Origin: a virus
Direction: 5' to 3' (one strand)
DNA length: 61,990 nucleotides
UHGV virus genome: UHGV-0106586
Part shown: piece after piece, positions 565-17,811 of the stretch
Layout: every line of letters starts with the position of its first letter
Numbering within the stretch: the first letter of the stretch is position 1
Notes under the pieces: model-generated
What the model saw: the letters and a program-made list of their open reading frames with translations, nothing else
Told to the model about the DNA's origin: nothing
Database searches by the model: none
Position numbers and translations under genes: made by a program

Positions 565-740
565 GAAAAATTTTAAAAATATTTTTGCAAAAACTGTAAT
601 GAAACGGGCGCACGCGAATACCACAAAACAGAACTATAATCAAGAATTATTTTTCAATCCGCTACAAATTTTTCTGTTGACTTTTATTTCCAGATGTGGT
701 AGCCTTGTGAGAAATGGCGACATCCCCACCTGCACCCACC

Positions 741-919
741 TACCTGCACAATTCTAAAATGATTTTTCTTGCCCGACCTGAGCGGGGTCTGCACGTTTTG
801 AAAATGAAAAAGCTCTTTGGAGATTACCTGCACAGTTTGAAAATGAATTTTCTCTTTGGAGTTCAAAATTTTCTCTACAGATTTCTCTACAGAACTCTAC
901 CTGCACAATCCTGAAATGA
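741..919. repeat. Three copies of a 22-bp direct repeat (tacctgcaca-N-aaatga) at 741-762, 825-846, 898-919, plus tandem ttctctacag at 871-892
   Basis: Repeats seen directly in the intergenic sequence. Confidence 0.6.
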
Positions 920-992
920 AAAAGCCCCCCTTACCTGAAAAATTTACCAGATAAGAAAGGCTTAGTCTATTGTGAATATTCTACAGAGTTTC

Positions 993-1778
993 TTAGTTCT
1001 TTGCGTCTAAGAAGGTAACTTCCGGTGAAGAGAAGACCGTCTCGATATCCTCATCAGTTCTTGCATAGATATATGTATCTGCATCACTGCCAAATGTTAC
1101 TGCAATTCTGTGATTGCTCTTTGACAGGTGGGTAACTAGAGCGTTACTTAGAGACATCTTCTCAACCGGAGGGTTACTTTGATGTATCTTACCTTTTCTT
1201 CGTCTGAAGAGGGTAACTGTATCATCTGTGAACATTACTACACCTGCAAAGTATTCTGGTTCACAGTAGTTATTCCAACCTGAGCGTAACTTGTGGTACA
1301 TCTCTCCTTCGTAGACATACAGATAAACATCTACACTCTTCATCACCTGATTAATGATAACTGTGACGGCTTGAGGGTCTAGTCCACCGATACCTGCGCC
1401 AATCATAGGTAACCCGACTTTCTTCAACTGATTGACTTCACAGTATCTGTTAAGCTGTTTCAAAGATGACTCTAAAGCACTGTATCGGGCATCTTTACCA
1501 GTCTTAAGCTGAGTGTAAAGGTTAGCTATACGGCCTTGTTCTAAACGTGCTACAGAGAAATTGCCTAGTAAATTTTCACAGGGTTTGTGACCTATACCAC
1601 CTGCATACAGATAGACTTCTGTATCAGTCTCATATGCTTTTGGGTAAAGTTTAGAAATCTTGTCAGCGATACCTGCACCCATTAAATTCATACAGTTGCA
1701 ACCGTGACCAATAATATCAAACTTACCTTTATCAAATGCTGAGAAGATATCCCCATTGATGATTTTTACAATACCCAT
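993..1778 (-). CDS. macro-domain (ADP-ribose binding/processing-like) protein with ~130-aa C-terminal extension of unknown function
   Basis: N-terminal IIGHGCNCMNLMGAGIA and later LPMIGAGIGG resemble macro-domain glycine-rich ADP-ribose pocket motifs; recalled by eye, not searched. Confidence 0.5.
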   Translation of the reverse strand: MGIVKIINGDIFSAFDKGKFDIIGHGCNCMNLMGAGIADKISKLYPKAYETDTEVYLYAGGIGHKPCENLLGNFSVARLEQGRIANLYTQLKTGKDARYSALESSLKQLNRYCEVNQLKKVGLPMIGAGIGGLDPQAVTVIINQVMKSVDVYLYVYEGEMYHKLRSGWNNYCEPEYFAGVVMFTDDTVTLFRRRKGKIHQSNPPVEKMSLSNALVTHLSKSNHRIAVTFGSDADTYIYARTDEDIETVFSSPEVTFLDAKN

Positions 1779-1979
1779 TTAGCATCTCTCCCAAGATTCT
1801 TTATCTTCTGAAGGTTTTACACGTTGTCCTTCGTGGTCTACCCAGATACATCCACAACCTTCACAGATTACTGGCATTGCATAACCAGCTTTAAAGTCAT
1901 CTTCAGTGATAAGACCTTTTAAGTCACCTGTATCACGTCCAAACATTTCGATAGCACAATCTTTGCAGAAATCAGCCAT
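1779..1979 (-). CDS. small Cys-rich hypothetical protein (start taken at ATG 1979; track start 2015 is a non-ATG codon)
   Basis: ORF in track; CxxC...CEGCGC pattern; start uncertain. Confidence 0.35.
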   Translation of the reverse strand: MADFCKDCAIEMFGRDTGDLKGLITEDDFKAGYAMPVICEGCGCIWVDHEGQRVKPSEDKESWERC

Positions 1980-3812: not shown

Positions 3813-4508
3813 TCAATGTTTAACTAACATGGTTTTAATGTGTGGAAGGATTCTATTTACCTTCTGAACATTCTTCTCTGTATCTTCTATAAAGCATACT
3901 ATATTAAAGTAAGGAAGAATGCAAGACTGAATCATCCTAACTTTTAAACTTTCTGCACTTATAGAGTTAGTTCCAAAACCACGCATAAAAAGCAAGTAAC
4001 CATGCTCTATATTGTGCCTTAAAAACATCTCAGTAGGTATTCTCTGAGATTCACCTCTTGCTGTCAAGAGTCCAACTGCTGCATGATTTGCAATTGCATC
4101 AATAATGTTGAAAACATATGTTGGCTTTGCTCTTACAGAATCAAGAAGATTAGTGTACTGTGAGAATGACCCATCAGTCAATTCCGTTGAACAATCTTCG
4201 TGATTAAAATTTGTGAGAACCCCATCAATATCTGCTAAGATGAGATTCCCTTTTTCTACAAGGTCTTTATTGACTATGACTAAGCTATCACGACTTACGC
4301 CTATAGATTGTCCAGTCTCTTTGTCCACAACGTTCACAATTGGTTCTGATGTGTGGAACTCTTCAAGTGAACATACAACTTCTCTTGCAGTGTCTTCAAA
4401 ATCCCTGCACTGTTCTGGAGTCCATACACAGGAATCAAGACCTAACTCATGAGGATGCGAGTCATAAGCATGGCACAGTACTTCATCAGACTTTCTTAAT
4501 TTTTTCAT
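3813..4508 (-). CDS. HAD-superfamily phosphatase, possible 5'(3')-deoxyribonucleotidase
   Basis: LILADIDGVLTNF matches HAD motif I (DxDGx); phage nucleotidase context. Confidence 0.5.
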   Translation of the reverse strand: MKKLRKSDEVLCHAYDSHPHELGLDSCVWTPEQCRDFEDTAREVVCSLEEFHTSEPIVNVVDKETGQSIGVSRDSLVIVNKDLVEKGNLILADIDGVLTNFNHEDCSTELTDGSFSQYTNLLDSVRAKPTYVFNIIDAIANHAAVGLLTARGESQRIPTEMFLRHNIEHGYLLFMRGFGTNSISAESLKVRMIQSCILPYFNIVCFIEDTEKNVQKVNRILPHIKTMLVKH

Positions 4509-9265: not shown

Positions 9266-11047
9266 TTAAAGCTGCTTGTCAATATTATTTCGAATATCAC
9301 CAAGAGTTGTGTAGCCGAACTGCTCAGAGTCGCTAAAGACTAGACGTAAAGCACAAGCTGGATGTTCAAGTGCATCTGCAAAGCTCTGGAACCCATAGCC
9401 ATCTACAGCTTTCAGGTTTTCACCATCCCACATAGGTGCTACACCACCAAAAGCAGACTTCTTAACACCACTATCTGTTTTAGGGTCTTTTGCAAGCATA
9501 ATCTCTTTACCACCAATGCTTGCAAGAGTTGCTTTGACAGCAAATGCAAAGGTGTCACGAGTCATGTACTGGTAAGTGTAAGAACCTACACCAAACACTA
9601 CGTTAGAGCTTGCAAAACCCATTTCATACAAACGCTTCAGTATTTCGTTTGCACGTTCCAACGTGATAGAATCACCATAGATAAGGCCAATGTGCTCATC
9701 CAGTACCTTAAAACCTTTAGAGTTGATAGTCCCTCCAAAGATGTTATACAGGGTCTTAATAGCCCCATCAATCTCTGCTACAGGACGTGTTACAACGTTT
9801 GCAGAACCAACCATATAAGCATTTTTCAACATCACTGTATCAGCAACTTCAAAGTCTTCTCTGTCAACAACCATCTCGTAGCCTTCTGACAGTAGCCATC
9901 CAGCAATACCATAATTGATGTTTTCAAGCTTCATGTTCAGAACAGCATTCAACATTGTGTCGCTGGCTTCCAGCTTGCTTAAGTGTTCGTAATAAGCCTT
10001 TTTAGCACACTCTAAATGGATTGCTTTGTATCCTGTGACAATATGTACAGGGTCTCCAGAATCAGGACGAATTACCAGTTTGCCATCACGTCCCATAATC
10101 TCTTTACGGAGTTCTGGCAATATGACTGATACAGTTCTCCAGAAGTTATAAGTATCTGAAACAACACTTGCAATACCAGTTGGGTAAGTTTCTGTTAAGA
10201 AGCGACGGAAGGTTTGTAACTCACCTTTAAAACGTCTTTCATCTTCAATCAATTCATTACCACCTTCCCAAGCAATGTTTGCACACATTACAGAGTGTTC
10301 AGTGGCTGGTACAGAACTACCAATATCAGAGATTGGGTAGGACTGTCCATAGATGCGTTTAGCTGTATATACAGCAGGGAAGCTATCAGTCCCTTTAAAG
10401 CTGGTTAAGTGACCTACAGCATTAAATGCGTCATCAGTAAAGCCAGACATACCACGCATAGCAAAGTCATGGCACTGATAAGGTAAATGTAAGTCGTTGT
10501 CACAAGTAAGGTCAGCCCATTTCTTACAGATACGTTTGTAGTGCAATGCGATAGTTGCAATGGTACAAGCCTTCCAAATCTCAGCAGAGAAAGCATCTTC
10601 CAGATACCCCGCTACCCAATGGAAACCTGAAACAGTGTTCTGGAAGACAATCATTGGTACACGCATAGGGACAACTGTGCCTTCTTCTACAGCGTATACT
10701 TCAACTGGCAGATAACCTAAGTCGTGAAGTGCTTCCCAATGCTCTCGACCAATAGCATCTTTACCCAGAACACCGTTCATGACTTCTAAGATTTCATCAA
10801 TTGCTTCTTTTTTGTCACGTTCGAAGAAGGTGGCGTTCCAGTGGTCTATCAGGTAATCTTTAACAAAACGTTGAATACCAAAAGCCACTACACCGTCAAT
10901 TGCTAAGGGGCTGTTAAACCATTTGTCACTACGTGGTGTTAGGTTGAACATCAAGTACTCTGTTGCGCTAGGATACTGGTAGATGTGACCAGATTTGTAA
11001 GCATCTGCATTTAAACCTGCTGGTACTGCATAAAGTGATTTAGTCAT
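9266..11047 (-). CDS. nadV: nicotinamide phosphoribosyltransferase (NAMPT)-like enzyme, 593 aa, longer than typical ~470-500 aa NAMPT
   Basis: Full-length NAMPT-type fold judged from translation; adjacent to a PRPP-synthetase-like gene; exact substrate (PRPP vs ADPR-PP) not decidable by eye. Confidence 0.8.
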   Translation of the reverse strand: MTKSLYAVPAGLNADAYKSGHIYQYPSATEYLMFNLTPRSDKWFNSPLAIDGVVAFGIQRFVKDYLIDHWNATFFERDKKEAIDEILEVMNGVLGKDAIGREHWEALHDLGYLPVEVYAVEEGTVVPMRVPMIVFQNTVSGFHWVAGYLEDAFSAEIWKACTIATIALHYKRICKKWADLTCDNDLHLPYQCHDFAMRGMSGFTDDAFNAVGHLTSFKGTDSFPAVYTAKRIYGQSYPISDIGSSVPATEHSVMCANIAWEGGNELIEDERRFKGELQTFRRFLTETYPTGIASVVSDTYNFWRTVSVILPELRKEIMGRDGKLVIRPDSGDPVHIVTGYKAIHLECAKKAYYEHLSKLEASDTMLNAVLNMKLENINYGIAGWLLSEGYEMVVDREDFEVADTVMLKNAYMVGSANVVTRPVAEIDGAIKTLYNIFGGTINSKGFKVLDEHIGLIYGDSITLERANEILKRLYEMGFASSNVVFGVGSYTYQYMTRDTFAFAVKATLASIGGKEIMLAKDPKTDSGVKKSAFGGVAPMWDGENLKAVDGYGFQSFADALEHPACALRLVFSDSEQFGYTTLGDIRNNIDKQL

Positions 11048-11065
11048 CTTTTAATCTCTCTCGAA

Positions 11066-11085
11066 ATGGGGCTTGTAAGCCCCTA
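11066..11085 (-). terminator. hairpin between NAMPT-like and PRPP-synthetase-like genes
   Basis: ggggctt-gt-aagcccc inverted repeat. Confidence 0.3.
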
Positions 11086-11092
11086 TAAAGTT

Positions 11093-11974
11093 TTAATCAA
11101 GGTTTGCTACAGTAACTTGACCATAATGTGTTAAACCACGTTCTTTAGCTTCCCCTAAAGAGTTTGTAGTGTAGATGTGGTCAATGCCATTGTCAAGAAG
11201 GTTTTCAACACCTTTGGAAAAGATACCATGTGTTACATAGAGTTCTACACGTTTTGCACCTGCTTCACGAAGATGTTTAGCTGCTTCTATGAAGGTTCGA
11301 CCACCATCACAGATATCATCAAGAATCATAACAGTTTTATCTGTCAAATCAACATCATCAAGGATTCGCATACCAGTAATTTCACCAGTCTTAAGGTTAC
11401 GTACTTTAGACATTGTGATGTATGGCTTATCCACCTCTTTAGCAGTCTCTGCAATCTTCTTAGCAGCACCTGCATCTGGGGCTACTAAGTAATCAATCAG
11501 TGGGTCATTTGCATAGTGGACTGCAATTTCCTTTTGAGGAATACTCTGGAAGCAGTTAAACAGGTTATCTGGTACATAGCTGTGAGGGTCAACTGCACAG
11601 ACTGCATCAAAACCCATTGCATTAACCTGTTGTGCAAACACTTTCAAAGCTGCTGCATCACCTTTAAACATGTGACGGTCATAACGTGCATTTGGCAAAT
11701 AGTAAAAGATAATGGTCTTCATAGCAAACTTATGAGGTACTAAATCATCAATTGCCTCTTTAGCAAGTGCCACAGCAAACAATGTGTCTTTATCATAACC
11801 TTTTACAATCATAATCACATTGTTGATGGATGATGCTGCATAAGCAGTAAAATCAACAAACTCTGGCGAAAAGTGCCCACCAATCTCACCAGAAGGAAAT
11901 TGGATGATGTTAAACTCTTCTTCATGAGTTCCTTTAGTCGGTGAATGAACTGTAACACGGATAGATGTTTTCAT
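11093..11974 (-). CDS. ribose-phosphate pyrophosphokinase (PRPP synthetase)-like enzyme; start taken at ATG 11974
   Basis: YLPNARYDR (cf ARQDR), DPH (cf DLH), VAPDAGAAKK and VMILDDICDGGRT (PRPP/phosphoribosyl-binding loop) match the Prs family as recalled. Confidence 0.75.
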   Translation of the reverse strand: MKTSIRVTVHSPTKGTHEEEFNIIQFPSGEIGGHFSPEFVDFTAYAASSINNVIMIVKGYDKDTLFAVALAKEAIDDLVPHKFAMKTIIFYYLPNARYDRHMFKGDAAALKVFAQQVNAMGFDAVCAVDPHSYVPDNLFNCFQSIPQKEIAVHYANDPLIDYLVAPDAGAAKKIAETAKEVDKPYITMSKVRNLKTGEITGMRILDDVDLTDKTVMILDDICDGGRTFIEAAKHLREAGAKRVELYVTHGIFSKGVENLLDNGIDHIYTTNSLGEAKERGLTHYGQVTVANLD

Positions 11975-11984
11975 AGTTTCTCTC

Positions 11985-12290
11985 TTAGTCAAAAGTTACG
12001 TTTGTTACTGCCATTGCAGATTTGCATTTTGCAGGGTCTACAACGTGATAAAGTACACTACAGTTACCTGTGCTGTCTGGTACAGGCTTTACCCATTGAT
12101 GCTCTATAGTTGGCTCTCCTAAGTCTTTGTAAGAACCATCTGTAAAGTTGTTTACCATCTCAAGTGCAATTGGTTCTGGAACATGACCACGTATCATGTA
12201 CATCTCACAACCATTACCACCTTCACTGACTAAGGGTAAAATCTCCCACTTTTCTTTAGCCATTGTAAGTTGCCCTATAAACTGTCTCAA
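11985..12290 (-). CDS. hypothetical protein (101 aa)
   Basis: ORF in track. Confidence 0.4.
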   Translation of the reverse strand: MRQFIGQLTMAKEKWEILPLVSEGGNGCEMYMIRGHVPEPIALEMVNNFTDGSYKDLGEPTIEHQWVKPVPDSTGNCSVLYHVVDPAKCKSAMAVTNVTFD

Positions 12291-14924: not shown

Positions 14925-15872
14925 TTACATAGAAATCCTGTCACGAATCTCAGCAATTTTTGCATCATTCATTCGGGATTCACCTTTAATCTTAGTCCAC
15001 CCAAGATACCCACACACTCTGTTAATCACAGAGATGTCATGTGAATGGCAAACCTCACATTCTTCAACATCAGCCTTTGGTCTGTTGCCACAATGTTCGC
15101 AGATTGCTAAGTCAAAGTTAAGTCCCTGATAGAAACCTTTCAACATCCCTCTTGTAATACAACTTTTAAGTGCTGTTAAGTTTTCTGGGTTAGCTACCCT
15201 TACATACTGGATTCTGCCGCCTCTACAGATATGGAAGAATGGTTCTTCTAAGTCCTGCTTCTCAAATGGTGAAATATCTGCTGCAACATTCATATGGAAA
15301 CTGTTTGTAAAGTATTCCTTATCAGAAACACCTTTGATAACGCCAAACATATCTCTGAACTGTTTTAGTTGAGTCCCACAAAGTGATTCTGCTGGAGTAC
15401 CATAGACGGCATATAAGAAGCCATCTTCATTCTTAAACTCTTCAGTTTTCATGTTAATGTATGCCAGAACATCGTATGCAAAACTATAGCTTCCAACTTC
15501 ATGAAGTCGTTTACCCTCAGCAAGAACAGACAACTCATCAAGAGCAGTAACCCCAAAAGAAGCTGTGAAGGACTTCACGATATCCCAACCAACCTTGTCA
15601 GTAGGTTTCTTAGTCCCTTTGTACAGACCACCTTGTGTGAATGCAAGAGGGTTAGAACTTGCTGGCATATTAGCAATCATTTCGTAGCGTTTCTTGTGGA
15701 AGCTGCGAATCATCTCTAGGTACTTATCAAGCTCTTTCCAGAAATCTAAACCATTCTCTTTAGAATACTGGTAAATCATTGGCAAGTTCAAAGATACAGC
15801 ACCAATGTTAGCACGACCTACATAAAACTCTTCACCATCTTCGTTATGATATGGTGATAAAAACGCTCTACA
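14925..15872 (-). CDS. nrdD: anaerobic ribonucleoside-triphosphate reductase, C-terminal exon (inferred exon 2)
   Basis: RVCGYLG glycyl-radical motif and CEHCG...C zinc-ribbon near C-terminus; open frame extends upstream of any start codon to 15893. Confidence 0.7.
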   Translation of the reverse strand, partial: CRAFLSPYHNEDGEEFYVGRANIGAVSLNLPMIYQYSKENGLDFWKELDKYLEMIRSFHKKRYEMIANMPASSNPLAFTQGGLYKGTKKPTDKVGWDIVKSFTASFGVTALDELSVLAEGKRLHEVGSYSFAYDVLAYINMKTEEFKNEDGFLYAVYGTPAESLCGTQLKQFRDMFGVIKGVSDKEYFTNSFHMNVAADISPFEKQDLEEPFFHICRGGRIQYVRVANPENLTALKSCITRGMLKGFYQGLNFDLAICEHCGNRPKADVEECEVCHSHDISVINRVCGYLGWTKIKGESRMNDAKIAEIRDRISM

Positions 15873-16614
15873 CTTATTGTTCAGGTAAGTTCGCTACGCT
15901 TACCCCGCTTTATTCAAGCTGCTTACTGTCACCAGTAAGTCCAGACTATATCTTCTACTTATTTCTAAGTAGCGTACCATTTCGAGTCGCTTGACCCTAC
16001 ACCGCTACATTCATCACGGTTAGTCGTTCGGCATTTAAATGTACTCAAAATCATGTTCAAAGTTATTATACTCTTTTACACCCTTCAATATTGAAGAGAT
16101 AGTCTTGCGATTATACCCAAGTACATTAGATAACTCTCGTATTGACTTAGCAACAATAACTTCTTTTGTCACTTTATGTGTAGCCTTCACAGCATATGAA
16201 CGCTTACAAAACTTGTAGCAACCATTTTCATAACCCTCTTTAACATTCTCAGAATGAGTTCCCCATTCTAAGTTAGAAGCATGGTTGTTCAGTTTGTTAT
16301 CATCTTTGTGTTTTACAATTGGAAGATTGTTAGGGTTAGGTACATACTTTTCAGCAACTAACCTATGGACATACATGTCACGATTCTTCCTTCCATAAAA
16401 CCTTACTTTCATATAACCAGTGTTGGATTTCCACTGCGTAAGTTCTACACCATTTTTCCTAAAGACTCTTCCGTCCTCAGTAACATGATAATTTGGCATG
16501 TAATACTCCTATTTTATATAGTTTCTTACATCGTACATCATTTAGCACAGGATTGTCTACACCTGTAGAGTTTCCCTGTTTAGGCACGTTTTAGATGAGC
16601 TATAGAGCTTGTTA
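15873..16614 (-). mobile_element. probable group I intron interrupting nrdD (boundaries inferred), carrying an HNH homing endonuclease ORF
   Basis: nrdD frame broken by stop right after ...ISPMG and resumes at CRAFLSP...; inferred intron ends in G; possible P1 guide GCUCAU near its 5' end; 7-bp stem with GTGA tetraloop in 3' part. Confidence 0.5.
16035..16499 (-). CDS. HNH homing endonuclease (intron-encoded)
   Basis: VHRLVAEKY...VKHKDDNKLNNHASNLEWGTHSEN is a classic HNH motif. Confidence 0.75.
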   Translation of the reverse strand: MPNYHVTEDGRVFRKNGVELTQWKSNTGYMKVRFYGRKNRDMYVHRLVAEKYVPNPNNLPIVKHKDDNKLNNHASNLEWGTHSENVKEGYENGCYKFCKRSYAVKATHKVTKEVIVAKSIRELSNVLGYNRKTISSILKGVKEYNNFEHDFEYI

Positions 16615-17811
16615 ACCCATCGGTGAAATTACCTTGCCAGAACGCTCAAAAGCTTCTGCTACAGCACCATGACCAGATACACTTAAGAAATCTGGATACA
16701 TTGCTTTAGAGCAACACTCAATAGCTTTACTGTACAGGTGTCCTTGACAGATATTTTCATCATGTCTCTTCTGGTCATAAATATAAACCAGTTTAGGAAA
16801 TACAACAGGTTTTTTGCTCTTACCTTGTCCATTCATACGAACATCTAGGAGAGTGCTTGCAATCATGTACTGTAGTCGGTTATCTTCATTAGACATGTCT
16901 GAGTCAAGTAAACCAAATGTTAAAGTTGTGAATGCAAAATCACCACGGCTACAGGGTACTGTATTTAGTTTCATCTCTAGTGACTGGAAGCCTTGAGTTA
17001 ATTCAATCTGTAGCTGCTCCATGACATAATTATGGTAATGTTCTTTAGGAATACCGTAAGATGCTGCTTTCTCAGCATGATAGCGTAGAGACTTCTTAGC
17101 ATACGGTACAAGCACCTTATCAATCTCCGCTAAAGTAAATCCACCAAATTGCTGTGCAGTTGCTGAAAGAACTACATCACCGATAACTTGTAAGGCTGAC
17201 AGTACAGACTTCGGTTCACAGTATTCGATGCCAGACATTTCAAAGCCACCTTTCAGTACTTTACCAATGTCAAACAGGCAACAGTTGATACCACCAAAAA
17301 TTAGGTCTCTTAAGTCATGGATGTAGATAAACCCTTTTTCAATGGCTTCGAGTTCCTCTGGTGTTAAATGGTACTGCTTAAAGATTTCTTTAGTCAGATA
17401 ACCACGAATAATTGAACCTTTTGTAGAAATTAAACTGCTGTCAAAGTTAGCGTTTTCACGGTCGCCTAAGAAGAGTGTATCTTTGGTCTTCTGGTATAGT
17501 TCATCCCAATTTTGAGCAACTTCTTTACGGTAATTTCTATATGTTGAGTAAGACTCATAAATCTCGTGATTGACTTCTGCCAAAGCACCCTCAACAATAC
17601 TGTGAATATCGTTTACAGAAATTAGCAAATTATTCTGCTTAGTGGACTTTACCAGAATCCTCATAAATGCTGACTCAAGAGCTTGAGTAACATCTGGTGG
17701 AAGCTCTTTATAACCAACTCTGTTAGCTGACTTTGTGACGGCTGCTAAAACTTTTTTGATATCGGGTTCTTCAAGTGAGCCGTTCTTTTTAATAATCTGT
17801 ACTTTGTTCAT
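16615..17811 (-). CDS. nrdD: anaerobic ribonucleoside-triphosphate reductase, N-terminal exon (inferred exon 1)
   Basis: N-terminal ATP-cone-like region (IIKKNGSLEEPDIKKV), class III RNR-like body; frame ends ...KVISPMG then stop. Confidence 0.75.

What the first reader, a model, noticed from the sequence alone, without database searches (positions are those of the whole stretch)
993..1778. Macro-domain protein fused to an unknown C-terminal domain
The N-terminal half carries glycine-rich motifs (IIGHGCNCMNLMGAGIA, LPMIGAGIGG) typical of ADP-ribose-binding macro domains, followed by ~130 aa with no recognisable motif. In a phage that also encodes NAD-salvage-like enzymes ~8 kb away, a macro domain could reverse ADP-ribosylation (DarT-type DNA or protein ADP-ribosylation) or process ADP-ribose-derived molecules.
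Basis: inference. Interest (0 to 1): 0.55.

Follow-up and report, generated by a model that had tools for sequence, protein, structure and literature searches.

The report
Phage macrodomain with orphan C-terminal domain
This Felix O1-type phage gene encodes an ADP-ribose-removing "macro" enzyme closely tied to the T4 protein that defeats the bacterial DarTG2 defence, with an extra, fast-evolving tail domain of unknown role found only in this phage group.

Summary
Window 993-1778 (minus strand) is one 261-aa ORF. Residues 1-157 are a genuine macro domain: Pfam Macro E 1.2e-7, PADLOC DarG E 4e-13, and the best structural matches are the DarG macrodomain and TARG1. Residues 168-261 form a compact beta-rich domain with no relative by sequence or fold.

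The window is a Felixounavirus. The gene is present in more than 250 sequenced phages, labelled "phosphatase" or "macro domain protein". Its macro domain belongs to the phage subfamily of T4/T2 Tk.4 (35% identity; shared HGCNC, NLYTQ and IGAGIG motifs). A 2025 preprint names Tk.4 AdfM and reports it as the T4 factor needed to resist DarTG2.

The most likely function is removal of DarT2-made ADP-ribose from phage DNA. That role is inferred, not shown here. The subfamily has Gln where DarG and TARG1 have their catalytic Lys.

The C-terminal domain occurs only fused to this macro domain, only in Felix O1-like phages. It is under purifying but relaxed selection, and its job is unknown.

Verdict: a real, largely explained gene, and a two-domain variant of a known anti-defence kind. 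Interest is moderate to low.

The parts
993..1778 (-). Complete CDS, 261 codons plus the TAA stop at 993-995
   Evidence: ORF list. Full-length match to phrog_335, E 1e-112. Full-length homologues in 258 phage records.
1308..1778 (-). Macro domain, residues 1-157 (DarG/TARG1-like class, T4 Tk.4/AdfM subfamily)
   Evidence: Pfam PF01661. PDB profile hits. Foldseek top hits 5m3e, 5m31 and 4j5q. 35% identity to T2 Tk.4, E 6e-24.
1665..1715 (-). Loop-1 motif IIGHGCNCMNLMGAGIA (residues 22-38). Asn28 aligns with DarG N22 and PhiKZ AdfM N23.
   Evidence: H25, G26, N28, C29, N31 and M33-G36 are invariant in 19 homologues. Alignment A3. Active-site residues as given in PMC13309987.
1509..1523 (-). NLYTQ motif (residues 86-90). 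Gln90 occupies the position of the catalytic Lys of DarG (K80) and TARG1 (K84).
   Evidence: Invariant in A1. Alignments. The same motif is present in T4/T2 Tk.4 and in 10 single-domain relatives.
1377..1412 (-). Loop-2 diphosphate-binding motif LPMIGAGIGGLD (residues 123-134)
   Evidence: P124, G127-I130 and G132-D134 are invariant. Gly131 aligns with TARG1 D125.
1278..1307 (-). Predicted linker helix, residues 158-167
   Evidence: AlphaFold2 secondary structure, helix 158-167
996..1277 (-). Orphan C-terminal domain, residues 168-261: six predicted strands plus a C-terminal helix
   Evidence: AF2 models. No Pfam, PDB or BFVD relative. Found only in same-architecture proteins. dN/dS about 0.2-0.6 for most pairs. 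Close and distant subgroups are homologous, hhalign 96%.
1786..1792 (-). Shine-Dalgarno-like GGGAGAG upstream of the ATG, inside the end of the upstream ORF; the stop and start codons abut (TAA|ATG)
   Evidence: Read directly from the sequence
922..963 (-). Terminator-like hairpin with a T-run, about 30 nt after the stop codon
   Evidence: Consensus scan. It is a pattern match only and was not significant against shuffles.

Best explanation
This is the Felix O1-group version of the phage anti-DarT macrodomain (T4 Tk.4, named AdfM). It is made from an early-region operon. The N-terminal macro domain would bind the ADP-ribose that the host toxin DarT2 attaches to thymidines in single-stranded phage DNA, and cut it off. 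That would restore replication and neutralise the DarTG2 abortive defence. The roughly 95-aa C-terminal domain is an accessory module specific to the Felix O1 lineage and packs against the macro domain. It is near-neutral in charge and evolves 3-5 times faster than the macro domain. I therefore think it more likely mediates a protein contact than acts as a general DNA-binding module. The contact could be with the DarT toxin itself, as the second domain of DarG does, or with a replication or ssDNA-bound partner. What is shown here: the ORF, the macro fold and class, the subfamily signature, and the distribution and selection pattern of the tail domain. What is inferred: the substrate, the catalysis, the anti-DarTG2 role and any role of the tail.
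For: Subfamily membership rests on 35% identity and E 6e-24 to T2 Tk.4. The HGCNC, NLYTQ and IGAGIG motifs are shared with T4/T2 Tk.4 and all close relatives. The original Felix O1 annotation already noted the tk-vs protein similarity. Functional evidence for the family is twofold. T4 tk.4 was the single significant hit in a transposon screen on DarTG2, and a clean knockout sensitised T4 (10.1101/2025.11.20.689424). PhiKZ gp104 removes DarT2 ADP-ribose from DNA in vitro and rescues DarT2 toxicity (PMC13309987). Asn28 aligns with the Asn whose mutation reduces PhiKZ AdfM activity. No ADP-ribosyltransferase is annotated in a relative that is 95% identical over the first 4.6 kb of the window, so reversal of a phage-made modification is unlikely. 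The tail is a real domain. It has a conserved reading frame in 256 phages. Its dN/dS is below 1 in all but one pair, the least diverged one. The AF2 model is compact with pTM 0.85. The architecture and gene position (rIIB ... SLT ... HAD_PNKP ... macro) are conserved in distant metagenomic relatives.
Confidence: 0.55

Rival explanations
1. It removes or reads ADP-ribose in a different conflict. It could reverse ADP-ribosylation of protein or RNA made by another host ADP-ribosyltransferase defence. Or it could degrade or sequester ADP-ribose-derived immune signals (Thoeris-type gcADPR or His-ADPR) or O-acetyl-ADP-ribose.
For: Macro domains of this class act on varied substrates. TARG1/OARD1 is the best sequence hit in the PDB. 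Loop 2 (GAGIGGLD) resembles viral Mac1-type loops, and SARS-CoV-2 Mac1 hits at E 1e-3 and E 4e-8 by Foldseek. The missing Lys argues that the chemistry is not DarG-like. Some records label the gene O-acetyl-ADP-ribose deacetylase.
Against: The only functional data for the NLYTQ subfamily point to DarTG2. No evidence for another target was found here. Database labels are transferred names, not tests.
Confidence: 0.15
2. It is the 'phosphatase' that the databases name: a Poa1p-like ADP-ribose-1''-phosphate (or Appr>p-pathway) processing enzyme working with RNA-repair functions of the phage.
For: Poa1p structures are hit (E 6e-5 over the first 60 residues; Foldseek E 1.5e-7). The gene is in phrog_335 'phosphatase'. 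A HAD_PNKP-like 'polynucleotide kinase' gene lies 2 kb away and is syntenic in distant relatives. One NLYTQ-type relative, P0026, is fused to Pfam cREC_REC, a cyclic-phosphate-processing receiver domain.
Against: No 2'-phosphotransferase (Tpt1/KptA) or RNA ligase is annotated in the close relative D4, so there is no source of Appr-1''-p. From general knowledge, A1pp phosphatase activity is a weak activity common to many macro domains. The T4 genetics assign a different role.
Confidence: 0.12
3. It is a non-catalytic ADP-ribose reader. The macro domain only binds ADP-ribosylated DNA or protein, or free ADP-ribose, and the C-terminal domain carries the effector or adaptor function.
For: Neither TARG1 catalytic residue is conserved (Lys84 aligns with Gln90 and Asp125 with Gly131). 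The extra domain, with confident packing (pTM 0.85), could be the functional end.
Against: Most members of the same subfamily, including T4 Tk.4, are single-domain proteins of about 155 aa that act without any effector domain. Asn28 and both Gly-rich loops are invariant, as in active enzymes. The tail has no recognisable catalytic or binding motif.
Confidence: 0.08

Closest known systems
T4/T2 Tk.4 (AdfM, 'anti-DarT factor Macrodomain'; bioRxiv 10.1101/2025.11.20.689424)
   Same: Same macro subfamily: 35% identity with E 6e-24, and shared HGCNC, MGxG(I/V)A, NLYTQ and IGAGIG signatures, including Gln in place of the DarG Lys. Both are carried by a lytic enterobacterial myovirus among small early-region genes.
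   Different: Tk.4 is a single domain of 155 aa. The Felix O1-group protein carries an additional ~100-aa linker plus domain. No experiment exists for the Felix O1-group protein.
PhiKZ gp104 (AdfM, 'anti-darT factor macro'; Cell Rep 2026, PMC13309987)
   Same: A phage-encoded DarG-like macrodomain. The catalytic-site Asn is conserved (N23 aligns with N28).
   Different: Only 24% identity, E 2e-4. gp104 has the DarG-type FPTK lysine (K78), is single-domain and is imported into the phage nucleus. It is biochemically proven, unlike this protein.
Bacterial DarG (DarG2) antitoxin of DarTG2
   Same: It is the best structural match (5m3e, E 3e-9), and the DarG HMMs hit the macro part. It also has a two-module layout: a macro domain followed by a second domain.
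   Different: Gln90 replaces K80. The second domain is about 95 aa, against about 190 aa in DarG, and is unrelated by HMM to the DarT-binding domain. The NCBIfam score of 47.6 is far below the equivalog cut-off of 250. There is no adjacent darT.
Human TARG1/OARD1 and yeast Poa1p (DarG/TARG1-like macro class)
   Same: They are the best PDB sequence hits, with a similar loop 1 (H-x-x-x-x-x-x-x-MGAGIA).
   Different: TARG1 K84 and D125 are not conserved. They come from different organisms and different biological contexts.

Membership tests
Macro domain superfamily (Pfam PF01661) | Profile match above the curated threshold | tested here: met
   32.1 bits against a cut-off of 22, E 1.2e-7, residues 25-141
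Macro domain superfamily (Pfam PF01661) | Macro fold with two Gly-rich ADP-ribose-binding loops | tested here: met
   The AF2 model (pLDDT 85) superposes on DarG, TARG1 and Mac1 with TM (target-normalised) 0.7-0.8. Loops 33-38 and 127-134 are invariant.
Macro domain superfamily (Pfam PF01661) | Binds ADP-ribose | not testable with these tools
   Needs ITC, a crystal soak or a similar experiment
T4 Tk.4 / AdfM-type phage macrodomains (NLYTQ subfamily) | Significant direct similarity and shared signature motifs HGCNC, NLYTQ and IGAGIG | tested here: met
   E 6e-24 and 35% identity; alignment A3; the motifs are present in all relatives
T4 Tk.4 / AdfM-type phage macrodomains (NLYTQ subfamily) | Stand-alone single-domain architecture (~150-185 aa) | tested here: not met
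   261 aa with an extra domain at 168-261. This is an architectural variant of the subfamily.
T4 Tk.4 / AdfM-type phage macrodomains (NLYTQ subfamily) | Required for phage growth on DarTG2-expressing hosts | not testable with these tools
   Known only for T4
DarG (DarG2) antitoxin | Active-site Asn (N22) and Lys (K80) | tested here: not met
   Asn is present (N28), but the Lys position is Gln90 in all 19 homologues
DarG (DarG2) antitoxin | C-terminal DarT-binding domain | tested here: not met
DarG (DarG2) antitoxin | Equivalog-level score and an adjacent darT toxin gene | tested here: not met
   NF048014 scores 47.6 bits against a cut-off of 250. The neighbouring genes are small phage ORFs, with no darT.
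TARG1/OARD1 | Catalytic Lys84 and Asp125 | tested here: not met
   They align with Gln90 and Gly131
MacroD-type / viral Mac1 hydrolases | N-x6-GG[V/L/I] and G-[V/I/A]-[Y/F]-G motifs (motif definitions recalled from general knowledge) | tested here: not met
   Loop 1 is N28-x5-GAGIA. Loop 2 is GIGG, without the aromatic residue.
Poa1p-like ADP-ribose-1''-phosphate phosphatase | Specific sequence or fold relationship, and phosphatase activity | tested here: inconclusive
   Sequence similarity is limited to the first ~60 residues (E 6e-5). Foldseek E 1.5e-7 is no better than for other macro classes. The activity cannot be tested here.

The most novel reading that the evidence does not exclude
The orphan C-terminal domain is a new fold that directly binds and blocks DarT2, or another variable host ADP-ribosyltransferase. 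The Felix O1-group protein would then be a convergently assembled, phage-borne 'DarG mimic' with two independent ways of neutralising the toxin: erasing the mark and inhibiting the writer. Its fast evolution would reflect an arms race with toxin variants.
Probability: 0.15. Interest if true: 0.6.

Novelty: new variant of a known kind. Interest (0 to 1): 0.35.

Why it matters
If the assignment is right, Felix O1-like phages carry a ready-made counter to DarTG2. These phages are widely used as Salmonella and E. coli biocontrol and typing phages, so this bears on their host range on clinical isolates. The protein also sharpens two open points. First, how does the Tk.4/AdfM subfamily work without the lysine that is an active-site residue in DarG and TARG1? 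Second, what does an extra, lineage-restricted, fast-evolving domain add to a phage de-ADP-ribosylase? Neither point is a major surprise, because the gene class and its likely role are already in the literature.

Tried and rejected
1. A word-indexed homologue search with the C-terminal 106 aa alone returned nothing. The full-length query was needed.

2. A profile HMM of the tail was searched against 1.84 billion representatives. It gave only same-architecture proteins, one truncated gene call (P0032) and a tail-only fragment. The other hits were multi-stretch hits in beta-propeller or other repeat proteins, which I reject as repeat-summed artefacts after Pfam inspection.

4. The tail as a basic nucleic-acid-binding domain: net charge is about -5 to +4 across homologues, so this is not supported.

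5. The tail as a mis-joined separate gene or a degenerate extension: rejected, given the conserved frame in 256 phages, dN/dS below 1 in all but one pair, a confident compact model, and homology between the close and distant subgroups.

6. A paralogue of the tail elsewhere in the window: none.

7. The macro domain as an eraser of a phage-encoded ADP-ribosyltransferase, as might be imagined for T4 Alt/Mod: no such gene is annotated in the close relative D4 (95% identical over the first 4.6 kb of the window).

8. Literature linking Felix O1-like phages to DarTG: none found.

Full report
**What is there.** Window 993-1778 holds a single 261-codon ORF on the minus strand. Its ATG (1778-1776) directly follows the TAA of the upstream 66-78-aa ORF. 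It is preceded by a GGGAGAG Shine-Dalgarno-like run. A terminator-like hairpin lies about 30 nt after the stop (this is a pattern match only).

**Origin of the window.** The first 4.6 kb are 94-96% identical to many Escherichia and Salmonella Felixounavirus genomes. In those records the gene is annotated 'phosphatase', 'macro domain protein' or 'O-acetyl-ADP-ribose deacetylase'. The 2003 Felix O1 annotation already noted similarity to the T4 'protein in tk-vs intergenic region'. The gene itself is therefore not new to the databases.

**The macro domain is real**
- Pfam Macro scores 32.1 bits against a gathering threshold of 22 (E 1.2e-7, residues 25-141).
- The PADLOC DarG model gives E 4e-13, and NCBIfam antitoxin_DarG gives E 1.4e-12. 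The NCBIfam score is only 47.6 bits against an equivalog cut-off of 250.
- A profile of 19 two-domain homologues hits TARG1 (3.8e-11), the M. tuberculosis and T. aquaticus DarG macrodomains (3.6e-9 and 1.5e-7), TTHA0132 and Poa1p, and nothing else in the PDB.
- An AlphaFold2 model built on that alignment has mean pLDDT 85.3 and pTM 0.85. Its best Foldseek matches in the PDB are the T. aquaticus DarG macrodomain (E 3e-9) and TARG1, followed by viral Mac1 domains and Poa1p.

**Which macro subfamily**
- tblastn against 50,697 phage records finds the macro part in 2,806 records, mostly at 30-40% identity. These include the T-even gene tk.4.
- Direct comparison with T2 Tk.4 gives 35% identity over residues 3-157, E 6e-24.
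- T4/T2 Tk.4, the window protein, its distant two-domain relatives and ten single-domain metagenomic relatives all share HG(C/A)NC, MG(A/S)G(I/V)A, NL(Y/F)TQ and (I/V)GAG(I/Y).
- A preprint reports tk.4 as the single significant hit in a T4 transposon screen on DarTG2. A clean knockout sensitised T4, and the authors named the gene adfM.
- Independently, a Cell Reports paper named the PhiKZ macrodomain gp104 AdfM. It showed that gp104 removes DarT2 ADP-ribose from DNA in vitro and rescues DarT2 toxicity, and that an N23A mutation reduces activity. The window protein is only 24% identical to gp104 (E 2e-4).

**A caveat on mechanism.** In the alignment, the invariant Thr89 is followed by Gln90 in the window protein, T4 Tk.4 and the distant relative. 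PhiKZ gp104, both DarG proteins and TARG1 have Lys at that position (DarG K80, TARG1 K84, PhiKZ K78; one search gives these active-site residues). TARG1 D125 aligns with Gly131. No other Lys nearby is conserved in the family. The Asn (N28, aligned with DarG N22 and PhiKZ N23) is invariant. The protein therefore belongs to the Tk.4 subfamily but fails a defining feature of DarG and of TARG1. How this subfamily would hydrolyse thymidine-linked ADP-ribose is unknown.

**The C-terminal part: structure.** The macro domain ends near residue 157. A predicted helix (158-167) then leads into a domain at 168-261 with six strands and a C-terminal helix. Its pLDDT is about 80-89 in the full-length model and 78 when modelled alone.

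**The C-terminal part: no detectable relative**
- Pfam gives nothing, and PHROGs gives only its own family.
- PDB sequences give nothing.
- Foldseek against BFVD finds only the SUSP2 orthologue.
- A profile search of 1.84 billion representative proteins returns only same-architecture proteins and fragments of them. The remaining hits are repeat-protein artefacts.
- In cultured phages the domain occurs in 256 records, all Ounavirinae or mislabelled relatives, and always after the macro domain.
- There is no paralogue in the window.

**The C-terminal part: it is a real domain**
- More distant two-domain proteins (40-48% identical in the macro part, 12-22% in the tail) come from metagenomic contigs. 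Those contigs show the same rIIB ... SLT ... HAD_PNKP ... macro gene order.
- The tails of the close and distant groups are homologous by profile-profile comparison (96% probability, E 1.7e-9).
- Nei-Gojobori estimates over seven phages give dN/dS of 0.03-0.22 for the macro part. The tail mostly gives 0.2-0.6, with one pair of nearly identical sequences above 1.
- The tail is therefore a selected, folded domain that evolves several-fold faster than the enzyme it is attached to. Its net charge is about neutral, which argues against a generic DNA-binding role.

**Interpretation.** The best-supported reading is an AdfM-type anti-DarTG2 de-ADP-ribosylase with a lineage-specific accessory domain (confidence about 0.55). 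The rivals are:
- another ADP-ribose substrate or signal (0.15);
- the database 'phosphatase'/RNA-repair reading (0.12). It draws some support from the nearby PNKP-like gene and from a relative fused to a cREC_REC domain, but no source of the substrate is annotated;
- a non-catalytic reader (0.08).

No ADP-ribosyltransferase is annotated in the close relative D4, so erasing a phage-made mark is unlikely. Nothing found here ties them functionally to this gene.

**Verdict.** The gene is common, already annotated as a macro-domain protein, and its subfamily now has a published candidate function. What remains open is the orphan tail domain and the lysine-free chemistry. I rate it a new variant of a known kind, of moderate to low interest.

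Noticed in passing
window 740-935: The ~500-bp gap downstream of the macro gene holds 3-5 direct copies of a ~30-nt motif (TACCTGCACA..TGAAAATGA..) plus a tandem TTTCTCTACAGA pair. Related phages leave this gap unannotated or fill it with tiny ORFs. These could be repeated regulatory sites; their function is unknown.
   Followed up: partly
window 1779-1979 (-), extendable to 2015: A 66-aa ORF with CxxC...CxxC spacing (zinc-ribbon-like; phrog_2210, unknown function) ends exactly where the macro gene starts (TAA|ATG). It is conserved in that position in Felix O1, Alf5, SUSP2 and KMM4. A different 63-aa CxxC...CxxC ORF occupies the same position in the distant relative locus L004 5810-6001.
   Followed up: partly
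window 14925-17811 (-): The anaerobic ribonucleotide reductase gene nrdD is split. The N-terminal half is at 16612-17811 (ATP-cone plus NRDD positions 1-250) and the C-terminal half at 14925-15791 (NRDD positions 284-560). Between them lie an HNH_3 endonuclease ORF (16035-16499) and a group I intron match at 15922-16102 (38.6 bits, E 1.3e-7, below Rfam's gathering score of 50). The close relative D4 has an uninterrupted nrdD.
   Followed up: partly
window 9266-11992 (-): A NAMPT-family ORF (593 aa) and a PRPP-synthetase-like ORF (299 aa) lie side by side, forming an NAD salvage/reconstitution module. In relative D4 an HNH endonuclease gene sits between them.
   Followed up: partly
window 3813-4508 (-); L003 3565-4227; L004 3675-4361: A 231-aa 'polynucleotide kinase' (phrog_3970) has no Pfam hit in the window copy. 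Its counterparts in the distant syntenic loci have weak or faint HAD_PNKP hits.
   Followed up: no
protein P0026 (metagenomic, 339 aa): An NLYTQ-type macro domain is fused to a different C-terminal module, Pfam cREC_REC ('cyclic-phosphate processing receiver domain', E 4.7e-7). This subfamily has therefore acquired C-terminal additions more than once.
   Followed up: partly
window 1-61990: ARAGORN finds no tRNA gene anywhere in the window, although the related phage D4 carries a cluster of more than 20 tRNAs. The window presumably does not include that part of the genome.
   Followed up: no
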